64,000 nt of DNA from the NCBI GenBank assembly GCA_903901055.1, contig CAIUPO010000051.1:8312-72311 (forward strand), written 5' to 3'. Both the position numbers and the translations under genes were made by a program. Under the pieces are notes generated by a model. The model was not told the DNA's origin. It saw nothing but the letters and a program-made list of their open reading frames with translations, and did no database searches. Source of the stretch: an uncultured Bacteroidota bacterium. GTDB lineage: Bacteria > Bacteroidota > Bacteroidia > JABEUT01. Positions 39,941 to 44,943 of this stretch are shown piece by piece. Position 1 is the stretch's first letter; each line of letters begins with the position of its first letter.

Positions 39941-41980
39941 ATGAAACTCGCTAACTATGTAGAAGGAAAATGGGTGGAAGGCCTTGGAGAAGGTGTTCCG
40001 CTATTTAATGCTATAAACGGAGAACTGATTGCCGAAGCCACTACCAAAGGTTTGGACTTTGGTGAAATACTTGACTATGCCCGCAACACAGGCAGCCCTG
40101 CTTTGCGTAAAATGACTTTCCATGAAAGGGCCTTGATGCTGAAAAAACTGGCGCTGCACCTCACTGCGAAAAAAGAAATGTTCTATAAACTGTCCTACGC
40201 GACAGGCGCTACCAAGGTTGATTCCTGGGTGGATATTGAGGGCGGTATCGGTAACCTGTTTGTATACGCCAGCAAAGGCCGGCGTGAATTACCCAACGAA
40301 CCATTTTTTGTGGATGGCAAACCGGAAATTGTCTCTAAAAACGGGACATTTATCGGGCACCATATTTGTGTGCCATTGGAAGGAACTGCGGTACATATTA
40401 ATGCATTCAATTTCCCATGCTGGGGAATGTTGGAAAAGATAGCTGTGAACTTATTGGCAGGTATGCCCGCTATTGTGAAGCCTGCGACCATTACATCATA
40501 CCTCACCCAAATAATGGTGCAGGAAATTATTTCTTCGGGTATATTACCGGAAGGCGCATTGCAGCTGCTTTGCGGCAGTACAGGCGATTTGCTTGACCAC
40601 CTTACTTGTCAAGATGTAGTTACCTTTACAGGTAGTGCATCCACCGGAAAAAAATTAAAATCGCATGCTTCCATTTTAGAAAATTCGGTGCGATTTACCA
40701 TGGAAGCAGACTCCTTGAACTGTTGTATTCTCGGGCCTGATGCGGTTCCCGGAAGTGAAATATTCAATCTCTTTATTAAAGAAGTTGCACGCGAAATGAC
40801 CACCAAAGCAGGCCAAAAATGTACTGCTATCCGCCGTACCATTGTCCCCGATAACCTGACAGAACCTGTTATTGATGCACTTAAGAAAAGACTTGCAACC
40901 ATTGCAATTGGCGACCCTCAGAAAGAAGGTGTCCGTATGGGCTCCCTCGCAGGAAAAGAACAGGTAAAAGAGGTGATGGAAAAAGTAAAAATGCTTCAAA
41001 AATCATGTGAGACCGTTTTCGGAAATTACGATGACTTTGAAGTAATGGCTGCCGATAAAAAGAAAGGTGCATTCTTCCCGAGTATGTTGCTATATAGCAA
41101 AGATCCGCTCCACAATATGGCTCCGCATGAACTGGAAGCTTTCGGCCCGGTTAGCACCGTAATGCCTTACAAAACCGCCGCCGATGCTATTGCTATTGCA
41201 AAGCTTGGCAAAGGCAGTCTGGTAGGTTCTATATTTACCGAAGACGATTCCTTTGCGCGTCAAATGGTGTTGGGTACTGCAGCCTATCATGGACGTATGG
41301 TAGTGATTAATTCCAAGTCTGCCGGAGAAAGTACAGGGCATGGTTCTCCCCTGCCCCACCTCGTTCACGGCGGGCCGGGACGTGCAGGAGGCGGTGAAGA
41401 AATGGGCGGCATGCGTGGCATTTTCCACTATATGCAGCGCACCGCTATACAAGGCCACCCGACCACCATTACAGCTATTACCGATGTGTACCAACCCAAG
41501 TCAGAACAGATACATACCCTCACCCACCCTTTCCGCAAATATTTTGATGAGTTGCAGATTGGCGAAACCGAAGTAACCCACAAACGCACCGTTACCGAAG
41601 CCGACATTGTGAATTTTGCCAATATAAGCGGAGATAATTTTTACGCCCATACGGATGTTACATCCCTCGAAGGCACTATGTTTACTAGCCGTGTTGCACA
41701 TGGTTATTTTGTACTCTCTATGGCGGCAGGATTATTTGTTGACCCGCGCAAAGGCCCCGTATTAGCAAACTACGGACTGGATGAATGCCGCTTTGTGAAA
41801 CCCGTTTATGTAGGAGCCACCCTTGGTGTGCGCCTAACCGTAAAGGAAAAAACAGCTAAAGAAAACAAAGAAGGAGAACGCCCGCAAGGCATTGTAAAAT
41901 GGCAGGTTGATGTGTATGATGAAACCGGGGAAACGGTTGCTATGGCTACTATTTTGACGATTGTGGCGAGGAAGGAATAA
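39941..41980 (+). CDS. paaZ: Bifunctional aldehyde dehydrogenase / MaoC-type hydratase (PaaZ-like)
   Basis: N-terminal ALDH domain (catalytic-Cys region GQKCTAIRR), EAFGPV and a C-terminal hot-dog/MaoC domain (FANISGDNFYAHTD...HGYF). About 680 aa from MKLANYVEGKW. Confidence 0.85.
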   Translation: MKLANYVEGKWVEGLGEGVPLFNAINGELIAEATTKGLDFGEILDYARNTGSPALRKMTFHERALMLKKLALHLTAKKEMFYKLSYATGATKVDSWVDIEGGIGNLFVYASKGRRELPNEPFFVDGKPEIVSKNGTFIGHHICVPLEGTAVHINAFNFPCWGMLEKIAVNLLAGMPAIVKPATITSYLTQIMVQEIISSGILPEGALQLLCGSTGDLLDHLTCQDVVTFTGSASTGKKLKSHASILENSVRFTMEADSLNCCILGPDAVPGSEIFNLFIKEVAREMTTKAGQKCTAIRRTIVPDNLTEPVIDALKKRLATIAIGDPQKEGVRMGSLAGKEQVKEVMEKVKMLQKSCETVFGNYDDFEVMAADKKKGAFFPSMLLYSKDPLHNMAPHELEAFGPVSTVMPYKTAADAIAIAKLGKGSLVGSIFTEDDSFARQMVLGTAAYHGRMVVINSKSAGESTGHGSPLPHLVHGGPGRAGGGEEMGGMRGIFHYMQRTAIQGHPTTITAITDVYQPKSEQIHTLTHPFRKYFDELQIGETEVTHKRTVTEADIVNFANISGDNFYAHTDVTSLEGTMFTSRVAHGYFVLSMAAGLFVDPRKGPVLANYGLDECRFVKPVYVGATLGVRLTVKEKTAKENKEGERPQGIVKWQVDVYDETGETVAMATILTIVARKE

Positions 41981-41992
41981 ATAAATTAAGTG

Positions 41993-42652
41993 ATGGATAA
42001 AAACACCCAAGAACTATTAAATAGAGTAGATTTTCTATTAACACAAGGGAATTCTGTTTTAGCAACAATTAATGACCTTCAGGTTGATCCTGCAGTACTT
42101 TCCGGTTTCCGATCAGCAAGTTTGTCATTTATAGCTGGACTTTTTGGAGAAGACCATGTTTATTACACAGAATTCAAAGTTAATGTGAATGGAACTTATG
42201 GCTCAAGAACTAGAATTGGTATTAGCATTCTTAACGCAATTAAAAATGAAATTGAGCAAGGTTGGTTAACTACAATAAAAAGCCTAATTACAGCCGAAGT
42301 TTTTTCAGATTTTTTAGAAATGAGTTTACATTTACTTGACAATAATTACAAGGATCCCGCTGCCGTAATGATCGGTTCTATACTCGAGGAACACTTACGA
42401 CAATTGTGTATAAAAAATGGAGTAGAATTAACTTATCAAAAAGGAGATGAAGTGAAACCCAAAAGAGCAGATACCCTAAATACTGACTTAGTGAAACAGG
42501 GTGTTTATAATGTTCTTGAACAAAAAGGGGTTACTGCTTGGCTAGATTTGAGGAATAAAGCCGCACACGGACACTATAATGAATTTGTTATTGCACAAGT
42601 GAAAGAAATGTATTCTGGAGTTTTAGGTTTTCTTCAACGAAATCAATTATAA
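41993..42652 (+). CDS. HEPN-motif protein (Rx4H), candidate RNase/abortive-infection component
   Basis: The C-terminal helical region is AAVMIGSILEEHLRQLC ... VTAWLDLRNKAAHGHY. R is at 42551-42553 and H at 42566-42568, giving R-x4-H. The N-terminal ~110 aa have no recognised motif. Confidence 0.6.
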   Translation: MDKNTQELLNRVDFLLTQGNSVLATINDLQVDPAVLSGFRSASLSFIAGLFGEDHVYYTEFKVNVNGTYGSRTRIGISILNAIKNEIEQGWLTTIKSLITAEVFSDFLEMSLHLLDNNYKDPAAVMIGSILEEHLRQLCIKNGVELTYQKGDEVKPKRADTLNTDLVKQGVYNVLEQKGVTAWLDLRNKAAHGHYNEFVIAQVKEMYSGVLGFLQRNQL

Positions 42653-42653
42653 A

Positions 42654-43532
42654 ATGCTACTATTTAATTTCAATTATTACAATAATCCATCTATTCAAGA
42701 AACAGGAAACTCCTTTTTAAGGGACGCTATTCTATCAACCTGTGGTGTTTTGTTGGGTATAGCAATAAGTGAGTTACTTGGCTATATTAGAAGAAAAAGA
42801 GAAATTAACGACGTAGGTGAAAGTTTTTTAATTGAACTCAACACAATACAACTTAATGTACCAATCCAACTTAAATCAATTAAAGAATTCGCAATTCAAT
42901 TCCATACAAAGCAAATTGATAATAAAATATTTAACTTCATAGCACTTTTAAACACTAAAAGAATTGATATTCTTGACAGAAGATTAGTTTATAAATATTT
43001 CATCAAGAAAGAAAAAAATAAAGAAAAATCATTTAAAATAGTAGATGAATTATATGCTTCACTTGAAATAATTGAGTACGATTCTCAAATGGTAAAAAAT
43101 GAATTTGATATTCAAAAACTCAAATTAGAGGAAGGGACTAAACAACTTGAATTAGCAACTCGGAATATAACTGAAACAATATTTCTTTGGTTAACTGAAA
43201 ACACTAATAATGGATATGATTTTTCATCCGACAAATTTTATCAATTCATTGAATTAGCAATTTCACCTATTATTAAAAAAATTGGGCAACTAAATGTACT
43301 TAAGGTAGATGAAGCGATATTTAACCCACTAATTGAGAAATGTATTGAGCATAATAAACATCCTTTAGTAACTAAACTTTTTCCACTTTGTATTTCCGCC
43401 AGAGACATGGTTGTAAGTATGGGAAGAAAGTTGAATGATGGGGGGACGCTTATGGAAGCATATGCTAAATCGATGGAGCAAGAAGGGATTAGATTAAAAG
43501 CTGGAGTCGAAAAATACATGGGAATCATTTAA
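42654..43532 (+). CDS. Single-pass membrane protein of unknown function, translationally coupled to the HEPN gene
   Basis: The ATG is 1 nt after the upstream TAA. One TM (AILSTCGVLLGIAISELLGYI) is followed by ~250 aa of Lys/Glu/Ile-rich helical sequence with no recognisable catalytic motif. Confidence 0.55.
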   Translation: MLLFNFNYYNNPSIQETGNSFLRDAILSTCGVLLGIAISELLGYIRRKREINDVGESFLIELNTIQLNVPIQLKSIKEFAIQFHTKQIDNKIFNFIALLNTKRIDILDRRLVYKYFIKKEKNKEKSFKIVDELYASLEIIEYDSQMVKNEFDIQKLKLEEGTKQLELATRNITETIFLWLTENTNNGYDFSSDKFYQFIELAISPIIKKIGQLNVLKVDEAIFNPLIEKCIEHNKHPLVTKLFPLCISARDMVVSMGRKLNDGGTLMEAYAKSMEQEGIRLKAGVEKYMGII

Positions 43533-43547
43533 TATTTACCTCCCGTA

Positions 43548-43600
43548 GGCGCGAAGTTGCACTTCGTGCCTAAATAACTGGTAAGCTGAGCTTACTTTTT
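43548..43600 (+). terminator. Hairpin pair after the two-gene cassette
   Basis: GGCGCGAAGT-TGC-ACTTCGTGCC (10-bp stem with one G-T pair), then GTAAG-CTGAG-CTTAC followed by T5. Confidence 0.5.
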
Positions 43601-43803
43601 GTTATCCTTCTCGGGACTTTTACGACATCAGGGACTTCCCTTCAGGTCGTTTGTGTCACTAATGTCCATTGAAGAAATATGGGCTAAAGCCCCTAAGTCG
43701 GTGTTGGTGTTTCCCACACCGCCATAAATGACGCGGCACCCGATTACAGTTCATTCACTATCCATTGCTTTTCCCAAAGGGATCCATTCGGACAAGCAGT
43801 AGT

Positions 43804-44229
43804 TTACTTCCGTTTCAACCCTGCTTCTATCATTCCCTTCAGCACTTTCAAATCAATATCAGCCAGCTTATTTATATACACGCAACCCATGCCGGCCTTA
43901 TACTTGCCCAACTTTTCAAGCGCAGCAGAATGTTCGCCGGCATATGTACCGAAGTACAACGACAGGTTCGATTTGCGTGGTGCGAAGCCTATCCGCATCC
44001 AGTCCGCTTCGCGGCCTGTGGCTGTGCTTTTGTGCCTTTTGATACCAAACCCGATAAAGGAATTGCTCCAGAGTACAGGCTCTTCCTTGCTTGCTTTTTT
44101 CATCATTTCCAGCAGCACAAAACTGTCTTTGCGCTTCTGTTCATTGGTAATATTATTAATGAAATCAACTACGCTGTCTGCGGTTGGTTTTGTCTTGTTA
44201 TCGGCCAGTTTTGATTTTTTTTCAGCCAT
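43804..44229 (-). CDS. DUF1801 (YdhG-like) domain protein
   Basis: VVDFINNITNEQKRKDSFVLLEMMKKASKEEPVLWSNSFIGFG...SLYFG...LGKYKAGMGCVYINKL. Confidence 0.75.
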   Translation of the reverse strand: MAEKKSKLADNKTKPTADSVVDFINNITNEQKRKDSFVLLEMMKKASKEEPVLWSNSFIGFGIKRHKSTATGREADWMRIGFAPRKSNLSLYFGTYAGEHSAALEKLGKYKAGMGCVYINKLADIDLKVLKGMIEAGLKRK

Positions 44230-44462
44230 AATAAATTACTGTTTGTTGCAGATTCTAATCTGACAAATTTAAAAGAAATTTAAGCAACACCGACTGGCTT
44301 TTAAATTTTGTTTATACCCGTGTTAAAGCCCAAAATTGGTGTTGGGACTATTTATACTGCACTACAAATTGTCGGCTTATGAACGGCAATTATTACATAA
44401 TTACATATTAATATATAATAAATGCCACTACTTCGGTCCCACTAACTAGTGTCTTTTGTTCT

Positions 44463-44477
44463 CTGTTATCCCTGTTA
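44463..44477 (+). repeat. Two CTGTTA units (distal part of the iteron-like array)
   Basis: ctCTGTTAtccCTGTTAata. Confidence 0.6.
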
Positions 44478-44730
44478 ATATAAAAATTCTCCTTTGTAAT
44501 TTTTCAAGAGTTTGATTCTTAATTTCTAATTATTCGTAAAGCGTCTGTTTTAATATTTGAACTCATGAGGGCTTCGCCGTTACTAATTAAATACTGGTCA
44601 TTGACTTTTTCAAAAAACACTTTTCCATGAATTATCTTTGTATTCATGAACGTAAAATACCCTACCAAAGTGATTCAAAAATATTTACTAATCAGTAAAA
44701 ATAAAAAACTAATTATTGATATAAAATCTT

Positions 44731-44888
44731 CCTGTAATTTCCTGTTCTGCCCTGTTAATAACAGGAGGCTCATTTACAAGGTATTTATTATCAATAACTT
44801 AGGCCGAGCCCGAAAAATCAAAATTCCTGTTATTCTGCTATTATTTCCCCTGTTACCTCCTGTTACCTCTCTGTTATCTTTCCTGTTA
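44731..44888 (+). repeat. Phased CCTGT(T)A iteron-like array
   Basis: CCTGT occurs at 44731, 44741 and 44751 (exact 10-nt phase), with the palindrome CCTGTTAATAACAGG at 44751-44765. CTGTTA occurs at 44827, 44850, 44860, 44871 and 44883 (10-12 nt phase), with a variant CTGCTA at 44835. Confidence 0.75.
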
Positions 44889-44943
44889 TTTTTCAGGACT
44901 AATTTTATACCTAAAAAATATAAAAACAATTTCAAAAATATAC

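What the first reader, a model, noticed from the sequence alone, without database searches (positions are those of the whole stretch)
41990..43600. Two-gene cassette (HEPN-motif protein + single-pass membrane protein) inserted after paaZ: candidate undescribed defence/toxin module
Two ORFs are translationally coupled (TAA at 42650-42652, ATG at 42654) and begin only ~10 nt after the paaZ stop. The first (219-220 aa) ends in a helical region with an R-x4-H signature, LDLRNKAAHGHY, preceded by AAVMIGSILEEHLRQL. That layout is typical of HEPN RNase domains of the DUF4145/Abi type. The second (292 aa) has one N-terminal TM helix and a ~250-aa Lys/Glu-rich helical body in which I recognise no enzyme motif. 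There is no MNT-type nucleotidyltransferase, which is the usual HEPN antitoxin partner. By eye the cassette is more AT-rich than paaZ. It ends in a strong hairpin and opens a ~3.3 kb patch of accessory-looking DNA (to ~45.3 kb). HEPN plus membrane-protein pairs are common in abortive-infection systems, but I cannot place this pair in any named system.
Basis: partly seen in the sequence, partly recalled or inferred. Interest (0 to 1): 0.68.

Follow-up and report, generated by a model that had tools for sequence, protein, structure and literature searches.

The report
Standalone HEPN gene plus unrelated inserted gene
The first gene is a real but uncharacterised stand-alone HEPN-type (putative RNase) accessory gene that normally travels alone, and the membrane-protein gene behind it is a separate, later 0.9-kb insertion rather than its conserved partner, so this is not a two-gene defence cassette.

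Summary

ORF1 (41993-42652, 219 aa) belongs to a family of more than 3,000 proteins. R187, N188 and H192 are invariant, the model is a confident all-helical fold, and its best structural matches are HEPN domains. Relatives score around the Pfam HEPN_RiboL-PSP threshold.

The two-gene cassette reading fails. In about 90 loci carrying ORF1 relatives, including plasmids and proviral contigs, none has an ORF2 relative and no neighbour is conserved. The closest relatives (72-78% identity) keep paaZ, HEPN and terminator but lack ORF2. DNA alignment shows ORF2 as an 889-bp single-ORF insertion (42653-43541) placed between the HEPN stop codon and its conserved double-hairpin terminator.

ORF2 belongs to a small, fast-diverging family of membrane-anchored helical proteins (about 24 members, 20-28% identity). 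Its members recur directly behind unrelated defence nucleases: ApeA-HEPN, a Type I R-subunit-like gene, an AbiV islet and a TraG/HerA-like ATPase.

Best reading: a single-protein, trigger-activated HEPN RNase, analogous in layout to RAZR/PD-T7-4, plus an independent gene of the kind found in defence islets. The functions are inferred, not shown.

The parts
39941..41980 (+). PaaZ-like gene (aldehyde dehydrogenase + MaoC dehydratase, 679 aa). It is the upstream context gene, it is syntenic with ORF1 in three lineages, and it probably supplies the transcript.
   Evidence: Pfam Aldedh 1.3e-57 and MaoC 6.5e-25. The same gene precedes the ORF1 orthologue in L001 and L002. The start at 39941 matches the 679-aa gene called in other assemblies.
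41993..42652 (+). ORF1: a 219-aa stand-alone HEPN protein, a putative RNase. It has an N-terminal helical domain (aa 1-90, 41993-42262) and a HEPN core (aa 91-219).
   Evidence: More than 3,139 homologues. AF2 pLDDT 92.9. Foldseek hits to HEPN domains: Csm6, HepT, AF_0298 and TM0613. 32 of 34 relatives hit PF18735. The N-domain has 44% mean pairwise identity against 65% for the HEPN core.
42386..42400 (+). Conserved EEHLR segment in the first long HEPN helix (E132, E133, H134, R136).
   Evidence: E132 and E133 are invariant. H134 and R136 are at least 90% conserved. Coordinates checked.
42551..42568 (+). RNKAAH, the Rx4H catalytic signature of HEPN (R187, N188, H192).
   Evidence: R187, N188 and H192 are invariant in 34 sequences of 52-78% identity to the window protein, drawn from several phyla. 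Coordinates checked.
42653..43541 (+). 889-bp inserted segment. It holds ORF2 plus 1 nt upstream and 9 nt downstream, and it is absent from the orthologous site in relatives.
   Evidence: blastn against L002: similarity stops at 42646 and resumes at 43542, which equals L002 1631, 4 nt after its HEPN stop. Alignment A4. L001 also has a degenerate copy of the element directly after its HEPN stop. GC 0.25-0.27.
42654..43532 (+). ORF2: 292 aa, with an N-terminal TM anchor (aa 25-43, 42726-42782) and a cytoplasmic elongated helical bundle. It belongs to a small divergent family.
   Evidence: 24 proteins at E<=1e-3 in 1.84 billion, including itself. The relatives are of the same length and 20-28% identical. 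Alignment A3. AF2 pLDDT 82. There are 4-6 K/R residues just after the TM helix across the family, which indicates an N-out, C-in topology. No significant fold match in the PDB or BFVD.
43546..43603 (+). Conserved double-hairpin intrinsic terminator: 43546-43572 and 43580-43596 plus a T-run. It originally followed ORF1 directly.
   Evidence: Terminator scan. Predicted energy -27.1 kcal/mol, and -27.4 for the L002 copy. 85% identical to L002 1631-1689, with compensatory changes in stem 1: GAAGT/ACTTC versus GGATT/AATCC.
43804..44229 (-). DUF1801 gene, a convergent and syntenic flank that is not part of the module.
   Evidence: Pfam DUF1801 2.3e-07. 83% nucleotide identity to L002 3063-3547.

Best explanation
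There are two independent accessory genes that happen to share one transcript.

**(1) ORF1.** ORF1 is a stand-alone, horizontally mobile HEPN protein. It has a variable N-terminal helical domain of about 90 aa and a C-terminal HEPN core with an invariant R-N-x3-H site. In this Bacteroidota lineage it has sat directly behind the PaaZ-like gene for some time. It is probably read from the paaZ transcript, and it was originally closed by a conserved double-hairpin terminator.

I infer that it works as a single-protein, trigger-activated RNase. HEPN cores would dimerise to form a composite Rx4H site. The N-domain would keep the enzyme off or sense a trigger such as a phage protein. Activation would cut cellular or phage RNA and stop growth, as in abortive infection or a toxin. 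This is the logic shown experimentally for RAZR/PD-T7-4 and proposed for AbiD/F-like HEPN proteins.

**(2) ORF2.** ORF2 is a later single-ORF insertion of 889 bp and 29% GC. It sits precisely between the ORF1 stop codon and that terminator, so it borrows ORF1's transcription, its terminator and, with a 1-nt spacer, probably its ribosomes. It encodes a membrane-anchored cytoplasmic helical bundle from a small, fast-evolving family. Members of that family recur immediately downstream of unrelated defence nucleases. I infer that it is a self-contained conflict or defence gene of the kind found in defence islets, not ORF1's partner.

**Shown:** the anatomy, HEPN membership, the lack of co-occurrence and the insertion. 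**Inferred:** RNase activity, the trigger logic and any defence role.
For: **HEPN identity**
- R187, N188 and H192 are invariant.
- 32 of 34 relatives hit PF18735, 9 hit DUF4145 and 6 hit HEPN_MAE_28990.
- The model has pLDDT 92.9. PDB fold hits are dominated by HEPN domains, for example 2hsb with prob 1.00 and TMt 0.75.

**Stand-alone and mobile**
- At least 341 hits lie scattered over many phyla at about 50% identity.
- 515 neighbour proteins fall into 463 clusters, and none is shared by more than 4 loci.
- Neighbours mix housekeeping genes with AbiEi, PifA, PD-T7-4, patatin effectors, HEC-06 and R-M genes.
- RAZR-like genes with a zinc ribbon and an Rx7H motif lie within two genes of it in L052, L083, L023 and L065.
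- It occurs on a Hymenobacter plasmid and on small MOBQ Acinetobacter plasmids among TA modules, and on 9 IMG/VR contigs.
- Its GC3 is lower than its neighbours' in 89% of 75 loci (p=5.5e-12).

**No room for a partner in relatives**
- In L002 the gene starts 11 nt after paaZ and its stop is followed at once by the terminator.

**ORF2 is an insertion**
-.
- No ORF2-family gene occurs in about 90 ORF1-family loci, and the reverse search also finds none.

**ORF2-family contexts**
- One member lies 8 nt after an ApeA_NTD1+HEPN_Apea gene.
- One overlaps the stop of a gene carrying a Type I R-subunit domain, next to an integrase.
- One lies 6 nt after a 494-aa protein with a weak HNH hit, in an islet that also holds HEPN_AbiV.
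- One lies 57 nt after a 1,011-aa TrwB/TraG/HerA-like ATPase.
- These partners are not homologous to one another.

**Analogue**
- RAZR is a single-protein system with an N-terminal sensor and a DUF4145-type HEPN RNase that acts by abortive infection (PMC13017515).
Against: - No experiment or RNA data bear on activity, and no RNA runs were found.
- The window protein itself scores only 14.1 bits against PF18735, where the cut-off is 28.4. Foldseek E-values are weak, 0.09-2.
- Many ORF1-family loci are flanked by housekeeping genes, and the window has no recognisable defence system. The defence context is therefore moderate, not strong.
- ORF1 and ORF2 share the same extreme GC3 (0.21) and are 1 nt apart. 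ORF2 relatives sit near three different HEPN families in 3 of 7 informative contexts. A functional link between ORF2-type proteins and HEPN effectors is therefore not excluded.
- Only 7 ORF2-family contexts could be read.
Confidence: 0.6

Rival explanations
1. A genuine, recently assembled two-gene system. ORF2-type membrane proteins would be promiscuous add-on partners, acting as membrane sensor, tether or second effector, that plug in behind different nuclease effectors. In this lineage ORF2 would have been recruited to the ORF1 HEPN RNase.
For: - The stop-start spacing is 1 nt, and there is no separate promoter or terminator.
- Both genes have GC3 of about 0.21.
- ORF2 relatives lie directly after ApeA-HEPN, in an AbiV-HEPN islet, after an HsdR-like gene and after a large ATPase.
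- In 6 of 7 contexts they start no more than 57 nt after a co-directional gene.
- The arrangement is identical in four independent assemblies of this organism.
Against: - No co-occurrence of the two families appears in about 90 ORF1-family loci or in the other ORF2-family loci.
- ORF1 orthologues at 72-78% identity exist without ORF2.
- ApeA and Type I R-M are self-sufficient systems (own knowledge).
- One ORF2 relative stands alone, 264 nt after a DUF2142 gene.
- The partners share no homology.
Confidence: 0.17
2. ORF1 is the toxin of an addiction or toxin-antitoxin module whose antitoxin has not been recognised: a small ORF, an RNA, or ORF2 itself in this lineage.
For: - Many HEPN proteins are TA toxins (PMC3710099).
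- On Acinetobacter plasmids the relative sits among RelE and BrnT modules, with a 133-aa hypothetical gene 52 nt upstream.
- Fold hits include the HepT toxins 7ae8 and 5yep.
Against: - There is no MNT or other recurrent neighbour.
- In L002 and in the window the gene is wedged 10-11 nt after paaZ. In L002 it is followed directly by the terminator, which leaves no room for an antitoxin gene.
- Rfam finds no known RNA.
- ORF2 is absent from relatives, so it cannot be the family's antitoxin.
Confidence: 0.08
3. ORF1 is a housekeeping or regulatory protein functionally tied to the PaaZ-like enzyme, for example in RNA processing of that operon or as a non-catalytic HEPN. ORF2 would be an ordinary lineage-specific membrane protein.
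For: - The paaZ-ORF1 adjacency is conserved in three lineages at 72-100% identity, with 10-69 nt spacers.
- The window lacks defence systems.
- Some HEPN families, such as MtlR, are metabolic regulators (PMC3710099).
Against: - Outside this narrow clade, none of the other loci pairs the gene with a PaaZ-like gene.
- The distribution is sporadic across phyla and includes plasmids.
- GC3 is systematically lower than the host's.
- The catalytic residues are invariant.
Confidence: 0.05

Closest known systems
Pfam HEPN_RiboL-PSP (PF18735), the 'Ribo L-PSP-HEPN' family of Anantharaman et al. 2013 (PMC3710099), within the DUF4145/Abi2-like part of the HEPN superfamily
   Same: It is the best profile match for the family: 32 of 34 relatives at E<=0.01, and the best scores 30.7 bits against a 28.4 cut-off, covering profile positions 66-185 of 191. 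The Rx4-6H motif is conserved, as stated for that family.
   Different: The window protein is far below threshold at 14.1 bits. There is no endoRNase L-PSP fusion and no ParB operon, which are the features that named the family. It has its own helical N-domain of about 90 aa. It is best called a peripheral, uncharacterised subfamily.
RAZR / PD-T7-4 (ring-activated zinc-finger RNase; PMC13017515)
   Same: It is a single protein of about 200-220 aa with a small N-terminal domain and a C-terminal DUF4145-type HEPN RNase, has no partner gene and acts by abortive infection. RAZR-like genes lie within two genes of ORF1-family genes in several loci.
   Different: ORF1's N-domain is helical and has no cysteine, so it is not a Cys4 zinc ribbon. 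The motif is Rx4H, not Rx7H. There is no PADLOC PD-T7-4 match, and hhalign finds no significant similarity. The resemblance is in architecture and logic, not in family membership.
HEPN-MNT (HepT-MntA) type VII toxin-antitoxin systems
   Same: They share the HEPN fold and an Rx4H site. HepT structures are among the fold hits.
   Different: There is no adjacent MNT nucleotidyltransferase in the window or among 141 immediate neighbours of relatives. ORF1 also has an extra N-domain.
ApeA and AbiV/AbiD/AbiF single-gene HEPN abortive-infection proteins
   Same: They are stand-alone HEPN effectors with N-terminal accessory domains, found in defence islands. ORF2 relatives sit beside ApeA and AbiV genes.
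   Different: ORF1 and its relatives have no Pfam or PADLOC match to these families. hhalign against the AbiV neighbour is not significant.
For ORF2: small membrane-anchored proteins embedded in defence loci, for example genes inserted into Type I R-M operons such as prrC-type insertions
   Same: It occupies the same kind of position, an extra gene tucked directly behind a restriction or nuclease gene. It is fast-evolving and AT-rich.
   Different: It has no sequence or fold relationship to any described family: Pfam, PADLOC, NCBIfam, PHROGs, PDB and BFVD are all negative. No enzymatic motif is present.

Membership tests
HEPN superfamily | Conserved Rx4-6H motif at the start of the last core helix | tested here: met
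   R187, N188 and H192 are invariant in 34 homologues of 52-78% identity to the window protein. The motif RNKAAH lies at 42551-42568.
HEPN superfamily | All-alpha helical-bundle core fold | tested here: met
   The AF2 model has pLDDT 92.9 and is all-helical. PDB hits are mostly HEPN domains: 2hsb (prob 1.00, TMt 0.75), 1wol, 7ae8, 1o3u and Csm6. E-values are weak, 0.09-2.
HEPN superfamily | Metal-independent RNase activity | not testable with these tools
   Needs biochemistry.
Pfam HEPN_RiboL-PSP (PF18735) | Score at or above the gathering threshold of 28.4 bits | tested here: inconclusive
   The window protein scores 14.1 bits, below threshold. Relatives score 20.4-30.7 bits and 1 of 5 passes. 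32 of 34 hit at E<=0.01.
Ribo L-PSP-HEPN as defined in PMC3710099 | Fusion to endoRNase L-PSP, or an operon with ParB | tested here: not met
   The protein is 219 aa with a helical N-domain only. No L-PSP or ParB appears among the 25 commonest of the 110 Pfam families matched by 141 immediate neighbours.
HEPN-MNT toxin-antitoxin | Adjacent minimal nucleotidyltransferase (MNT) gene | tested here: not met
   The neighbours in the window are the PaaZ-like gene, ORF2 and DUF1801. No NTase is recurrent among neighbours of relatives.
RAZR / PD-T7-4 | N-terminal Cys4 zinc-ribbon domain and a match to the PD-T7-4 model | tested here: not met
   There are 0 Cys in aa 1-90. No PADLOC hit for ORF1, and no PD-T7-4 hit in 34 relatives. 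hhalign against a RAZR-like neighbour gives E=0.2.
Conserved two-gene system (ORF1 + ORF2) | Co-occurrence of homologues of both genes in other genomes | tested here: not met
   The ORF2-family HMM has 0 hits at E<=1 in about 90 other ORF1-family loci. The ORF1-family HMM has 0 hits in ORF2-family loci other than the window's own. Orthologous loci L001 and L002 lack ORF2.
Known defence systems (PADLOC-DB 2.0.0) | HMM match of either protein | tested here: not met
   No hits for ORF1 or ORF2 at E<=1. There are only stray weak hits for relatives. The whole window gives only generic-domain hits.
Integron-type gene cassette (considered for ORF2) | A cassette-borne attC-like hairpin at the 3' end | tested here: not met
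   The hairpins after ORF2 are present at the same site in relatives that lack ORF2, so they belong to the recipient locus and not to the insert. A nearby integron integrase was not specifically searched for.

The most novel reading that the evidence does not exclude
ORF2-type proteins, which combine an N-terminal membrane anchor with a cytoplasmic helical bundle, may be a previously unrecognised, promiscuous add-on module. On this reading they insert, promoterless, directly behind the stop codon of diverse nuclease effectors: three different HEPN families, a Type I R-subunit-like gene and an HNH/ATPase protein. They would then functionally couple those effectors to the membrane as a sensor, tether or second effector. 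The window would capture a very recent recruitment event.
Probability: 0.12. Interest if true: 0.65.

Novelty: new member of a known kind. Interest (0 to 1): 0.36.

Why it matters
ORF1 represents a large, widely transferred family of more than 3,000 proteins. It is completely uncharacterised, and databases mostly label it 'hypothetical', 'HEPN domain-containing' or 'DUF4145 domain-containing'. It is a stand-alone HEPN protein with its own N-terminal domain. If it behaves like RAZR, it would add another single-protein, trigger-sensing RNase to the bacterial immune repertoire, and its variable N-domain would be the place to look for the trigger.

The ORF2 family is a small new family with a reproducible habit of sitting immediately behind defence nucleases. 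The window offers a clean before-and-after example, at base-pair resolution, of such a gene being slotted between a stop codon and a terminator.

Neither point is surprising in kind. The value lies in a corrected annotation and two testable leads.

Tried and rejected
- **Family libraries for ORF2:** Pfam, NCBIfam, PHROGs and PADLOC gave nothing.
- **Word-indexed searches with ORF2:** the single sequence returned only itself. The ORF2 family alignment returned only itself and one relative already in that alignment. The exhaustive HMMER search was needed to find relatives.
- **PDB sequence search with the ORF1 profile:** nothing meaningful.
- **Fold searches with the ORF2 model:** PDB and BFVD gave only generic long-helix bundles such as McpS/TorS sensor domains and BAR domains, at TM 0.2-0.4. 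I rejected these as evidence of function.
- **Collection scans with ORF2-family queries:** Single-protein scans of metagenome and viral contigs found nothing.
- **Short contigs:** two look-ups landed on contigs too short to be informative.
- **Phage and plasmid collections:** ORF1 is on plasmids but not in deposited phages, and ORF2 is in neither.
- **RNA evidence for co-transcription:** no RNA runs were found.
- **Population polymorphism of the ORF2 insertion:** no contig skips it in four lake metagenomes, but contigs drop rare variants.
- **Rfam on 39-46 kb:** no hit.
- **Integron-cassette idea for ORF2:** rejected because the hairpins pre-exist in ORF2-less relatives.
- **Target-site duplication at the insertion:** only the two TAA stop codons and a 10-of-14 resemblance of the two gene ends, which is not distinguishable from chance in AT-rich DNA.
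- **RxxxxH-like strings in partners of ORF2 relatives:** their frequency is about what chance predicts, so I did not pursue them.
- **Spurious-ORF explanation for ORF2:** rejected, because it has homologues, a confident model and 292 codons open in 29% GC DNA.
Full report
**1. Observation**

- **Upstream gene.** A PaaZ-like gene (Aldedh + MaoC domains) ends at 41980.
- **ORF1.** It starts at ATG 41993, with an in-frame GTG at 41990, and ends with TAA at 42650-42652.
- **ORF2.** It starts at ATG 42654 and ends at 43532.
- **ORF1 motifs.** EEHLR lies at 42386-42400 and RNKAAH at 42551-42568.
- **ORF2 shape.** It has a single hydrophobic helix (aa 25-43) followed by YIRRKRE, and then a helical body.
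- **Composition.** GC falls from 0.46 in paaZ to 0.34 in ORF1 and 0.29 in ORF2, against 0.38 for the window. Both ORFs have GC3 of about 0.21, the lowest of the 41 long ORFs in the window.
- **Terminator.** A double hairpin plus T-run follows at 43546-43603.

**2. ORF1 is a HEPN protein of a large stand-alone family**

- It has more than 3,139 database relatives, nearly all about 220 aa long.
- In an alignment of 34 relatives (52-78% identical to the window protein, from Bacteroidota, Pseudomonadota and others), R187, N188 and H192 are invariant, as are E132 and E133.
- 32 of the 34 hit Pfam HEPN_RiboL-PSP at E<=0.01. Some also hit DUF4145 and HEPN_MAE_28990.
- Scores straddle the curated cut-off: the best is 30.7 against 28.4, and the window protein scores 14.1.
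- An AlphaFold model built on this alignment is confident (pLDDT 92.9). It shows an N-terminal helical domain (aa 1-90) and a helical C-terminal domain.
- Its PDB matches are dominated by HEPN domains (Csm6, HepT toxins, AF_0298, TM0613, ST0689), though with weak E-values.
- The 2013 HEPN survey lists 'Ribo L-PSP-HEPN' as a family with a conserved Rx4-6H motif, distantly related to AbiD and AbiF. It is defined by fusion to endoRNase L-PSP or an operon with ParB (PMC3710099). Neither feature is present here.
- No PADLOC model matches ORF1, and none matches its relatives convincingly.

**3. The family travels alone and moves horizontally**

- A scan of one genome per species found at least 341 carriers in many phyla, all about 47-57% identical to the window protein.
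- I called genes in about 80 loci and clustered 515 neighbours within four genes. They fell into 463 clusters, and no cluster was shared by more than four loci.
- Pfam and PADLOC summaries of the 141 immediate neighbours show a mixture of two kinds:
  - housekeeping genes: aconitase, purH, GroEL and sigma factors;
  - scattered strong defence or mobile-element hits: AbiEi, PifA, PD-T7-4, patatin effectors, HEC-06, MzaA, Type I S and Type IV restriction genes, YoeB and transposases.
- Genes with a CxxC...CxxC zinc ribbon and an Rx7H motif, the RAZR/PD-T7-4 architecture, lie within two genes of the ORF1-family gene in L052, L083, L023 and L065.
- The family occurs on a Hymenobacter plasmid beside NACHT, recombinase and IS genes. 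It also occurs on small mobilizable Acinetobacter plasmids between RelE and BrnT toxin-antitoxin modules. It is on 9 IMG/VR contigs but in no deposited phage genome.
- Across 75 loci its GC3 is below that of its neighbours in 89% of cases (mean -0.11, p=5.5e-12).
- The N-domain is more variable than the HEPN core, at 44% against 65% mean pairwise identity, and it has no cysteines.

**4. The pair is not a conserved cassette**

- The closest relatives (78% identity in L002, 72% in L001) still sit directly after the PaaZ-like gene but lack ORF2.
- At the DNA level, window-L002 similarity (82%) runs through paaZ and ORF1 up to 42646. It resumes at 43542, which corresponds to L002 position 1631, four bases after the L002 HEPN stop.
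- That resumed segment is the double-hairpin terminator. It is 85% identical, and stem 1 has compensatory changes.
- L001 also has a degenerate copy of the element directly after its HEPN stop.
- ORF2, with 1 nt before it and 9 nt after it (42653-43541, 889 bp), is therefore an insertion in the window's lineage. It sits between a stop codon and a pre-existing terminator and has no promoter, terminator or flanking repeats of its own.
- The same arrangement is found, 100% identical, in four assemblies of this lake-water organism.
- An HMM of the ORF2 family finds no member in any other ORF1-family locus, about 90 loci including plasmids and IMG/VR. The ORF1 HMM finds nothing in other ORF2-family loci.

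**5. What ORF2 is**

- The word-indexed search returned only ORF2 itself. An exhaustive HMMER search of 1.84 billion representatives found 23 relatives at 20-28% identity. Nearly all are about 285-295 aa and align from residue 1.
- They share an N-terminal M-x-L-F/I-x-F-N motif, a Gly-rich hydrophobic helix, a K/R cluster just after it and a G-E-x-F-x-x-E segment.
- The charge distribution implies an N-out, C-in topology, so the helical body is cytoplasmic.
- The model (pLDDT 82) is an elongated helical bundle with no significant match in the PDB or BFVD.
- The readable contexts of relatives are as follows:
  - 8 nt after an ApeA_NTD1+HEPN_Apea gene, and followed by an HNH gene;
  - overlapping the stop of a gene with a Type I R-subunit domain, beside an integrase and trmE;
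  - 6 nt after a 494-aa protein with a weak HNH hit, in a five-gene islet that also holds HEPN_AbiV, inserted before era and der;
  - 57 nt after a 1,011-aa TrwB/TraG/HerA-like ATPase;
  - 43 nt after an unidentified partial gene;
  - one member standing alone, 264 nt after a DUF2142 gene.
- These partners share no homology with each other.
- The family therefore shows a habit of sitting promoterless just behind diverse conflict-system nucleases. It has no fixed partner.

**6. Mechanism (inferred)**

*ORF1.* It is most likely a single-protein, conditionally active HEPN RNase. The HEPN cores would dimerise to build the Rx4H site. The variable N-domain would gate or sense. Activation would degrade RNA and arrest growth.

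The best characterised analogue in logic and size is RAZR/PD-T7-4. It has an N-terminal sensor domain and a DUF4145-type HEPN, acts by abortive infection, and is activated by assembling on phage ring proteins (PMC13017515). ORF1 fails RAZR's defining features: it has no zinc ribbon, no model match, and hhalign is not significant. It is therefore an analogue, not a member.

*ORF2.* It is most likely a separate gene of the defence-islet kind with an unknown mechanism. Possibilities are a membrane-anchored scaffold, a sensor or an exclusion factor.

*Rival readings.*
- **Recently formed functional pair.** This keeps some weight, about 0.17. The two genes are 1 nt apart, they share composition, and ORF2 relatives are near three distinct HEPN families in 3 of 7 contexts.
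- **Hidden-antitoxin TA module.** This is unlikely, for the reasons listed in the rival section.
- **paaZ-linked housekeeping role.** This is also unlikely, for the reasons listed there.

**7. Context and limits**

- The window itself is not a defence island. PADLOC over its 56 genes gives only weak generic-domain hits.
- DUF1801 and DUF5670 downstream are syntenic core-like genes.
- No RNA data exist for the locus.
- All functional statements are inferences from family membership, architecture and context.

**8. Verdict**

The HEPN call is supported. The interpretation as a two-gene cassette inserted after paaZ is not supported.

The finding is a new, uncharacterised member of a known kind (stand-alone HEPN effectors), plus a small unannotated gene family with a defence-associated placement. 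Interest is moderate to low, at 0.36.

Noticed in passing
window 44350-44900: In four lake-water metagenomes this AT-rich intergenic stretch has a contig word depth of up to about 270x, against about 20x for its flanks. It shows more than 15 different joints that skip 93-284 bp, and many loose ends. It behaves like a high-copy, modular repeat in the community, but it has no second copy inside the window.
   Followed up: partly
window 41000-41947: The 3' part of paaZ is covered at 85-110x by two variants about 7% apart. Depth drops to about 20x right at the end of paaZ (about 41940). Co-occurring sister strains therefore differ, or diverge beyond 15%, from ORF1 onward.
   Followed up: no
L002 1631-1689 and 2001-2057: The relative L002 carries two copies of the hairpin-terminator element about 370 bp apart. 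The DNA between them contains three short GGGCT(A/T)(A/T)AGCCC palindromes. The window has one such palindrome, at 43681-43692. This may be the footprint of another small insertion at the same hotspot.
   Followed up: partly
L052 5348-5974; L083 (gene -2); L023 6737-7402; L065 (gene +2): Proteins of about 210-220 aa with an N-terminal CxxC...CxxC zinc ribbon and an Rx7H motif, the RAZR/PD-T7-4 architecture, lie beside or within two genes of the ORF1-family HEPN gene. In these loci two different single-protein HEPN genes sit side by side.
   Followed up: partly
L094 4510-8808: A five-gene islet sits between T9SS-cargo genes and the era and der genes. It holds a 494-aa protein with a weak HNH hit, an ORF2-family gene, genes of 139 and 192 aa, and a HEPN_AbiV gene. 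It looks like an uncharacterised composite defence islet.
   Followed up: partly
L085 594-5964: This apparent operon holds a 161-aa protein, a 1,011-aa TrwB/TraG/HerA-like P-loop ATPase with a weak nSTAND_NTPase5 hit, an ORF2-family gene and a 283-aa UPF0489 protein. It lies next to MqsA-like and DUF4258 genes and rpoC, and may be another candidate conflict system.
   Followed up: no
window 43600-43800: This GC-rich stretch (0.45-0.47) lies between the terminator and the convergent DUF1801 gene and has no ORF. It has no Rfam match, and the corresponding interval in L002 is different and longer, at 1.4 kb.
   Followed up: partly
L096 3470-4597 (Acinetobacter pittii plasmid pOCUAc17-3): On small MOBQ plasmids a distant ORF1 relative (39% identity over aa 52-214) is preceded, 52 nt upstream, by a 133-aa hypothetical gene. 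It is flanked by RelE/HTH and BrnT/BrnA modules. That subfamily might have a partner of its own.
   Followed up: no
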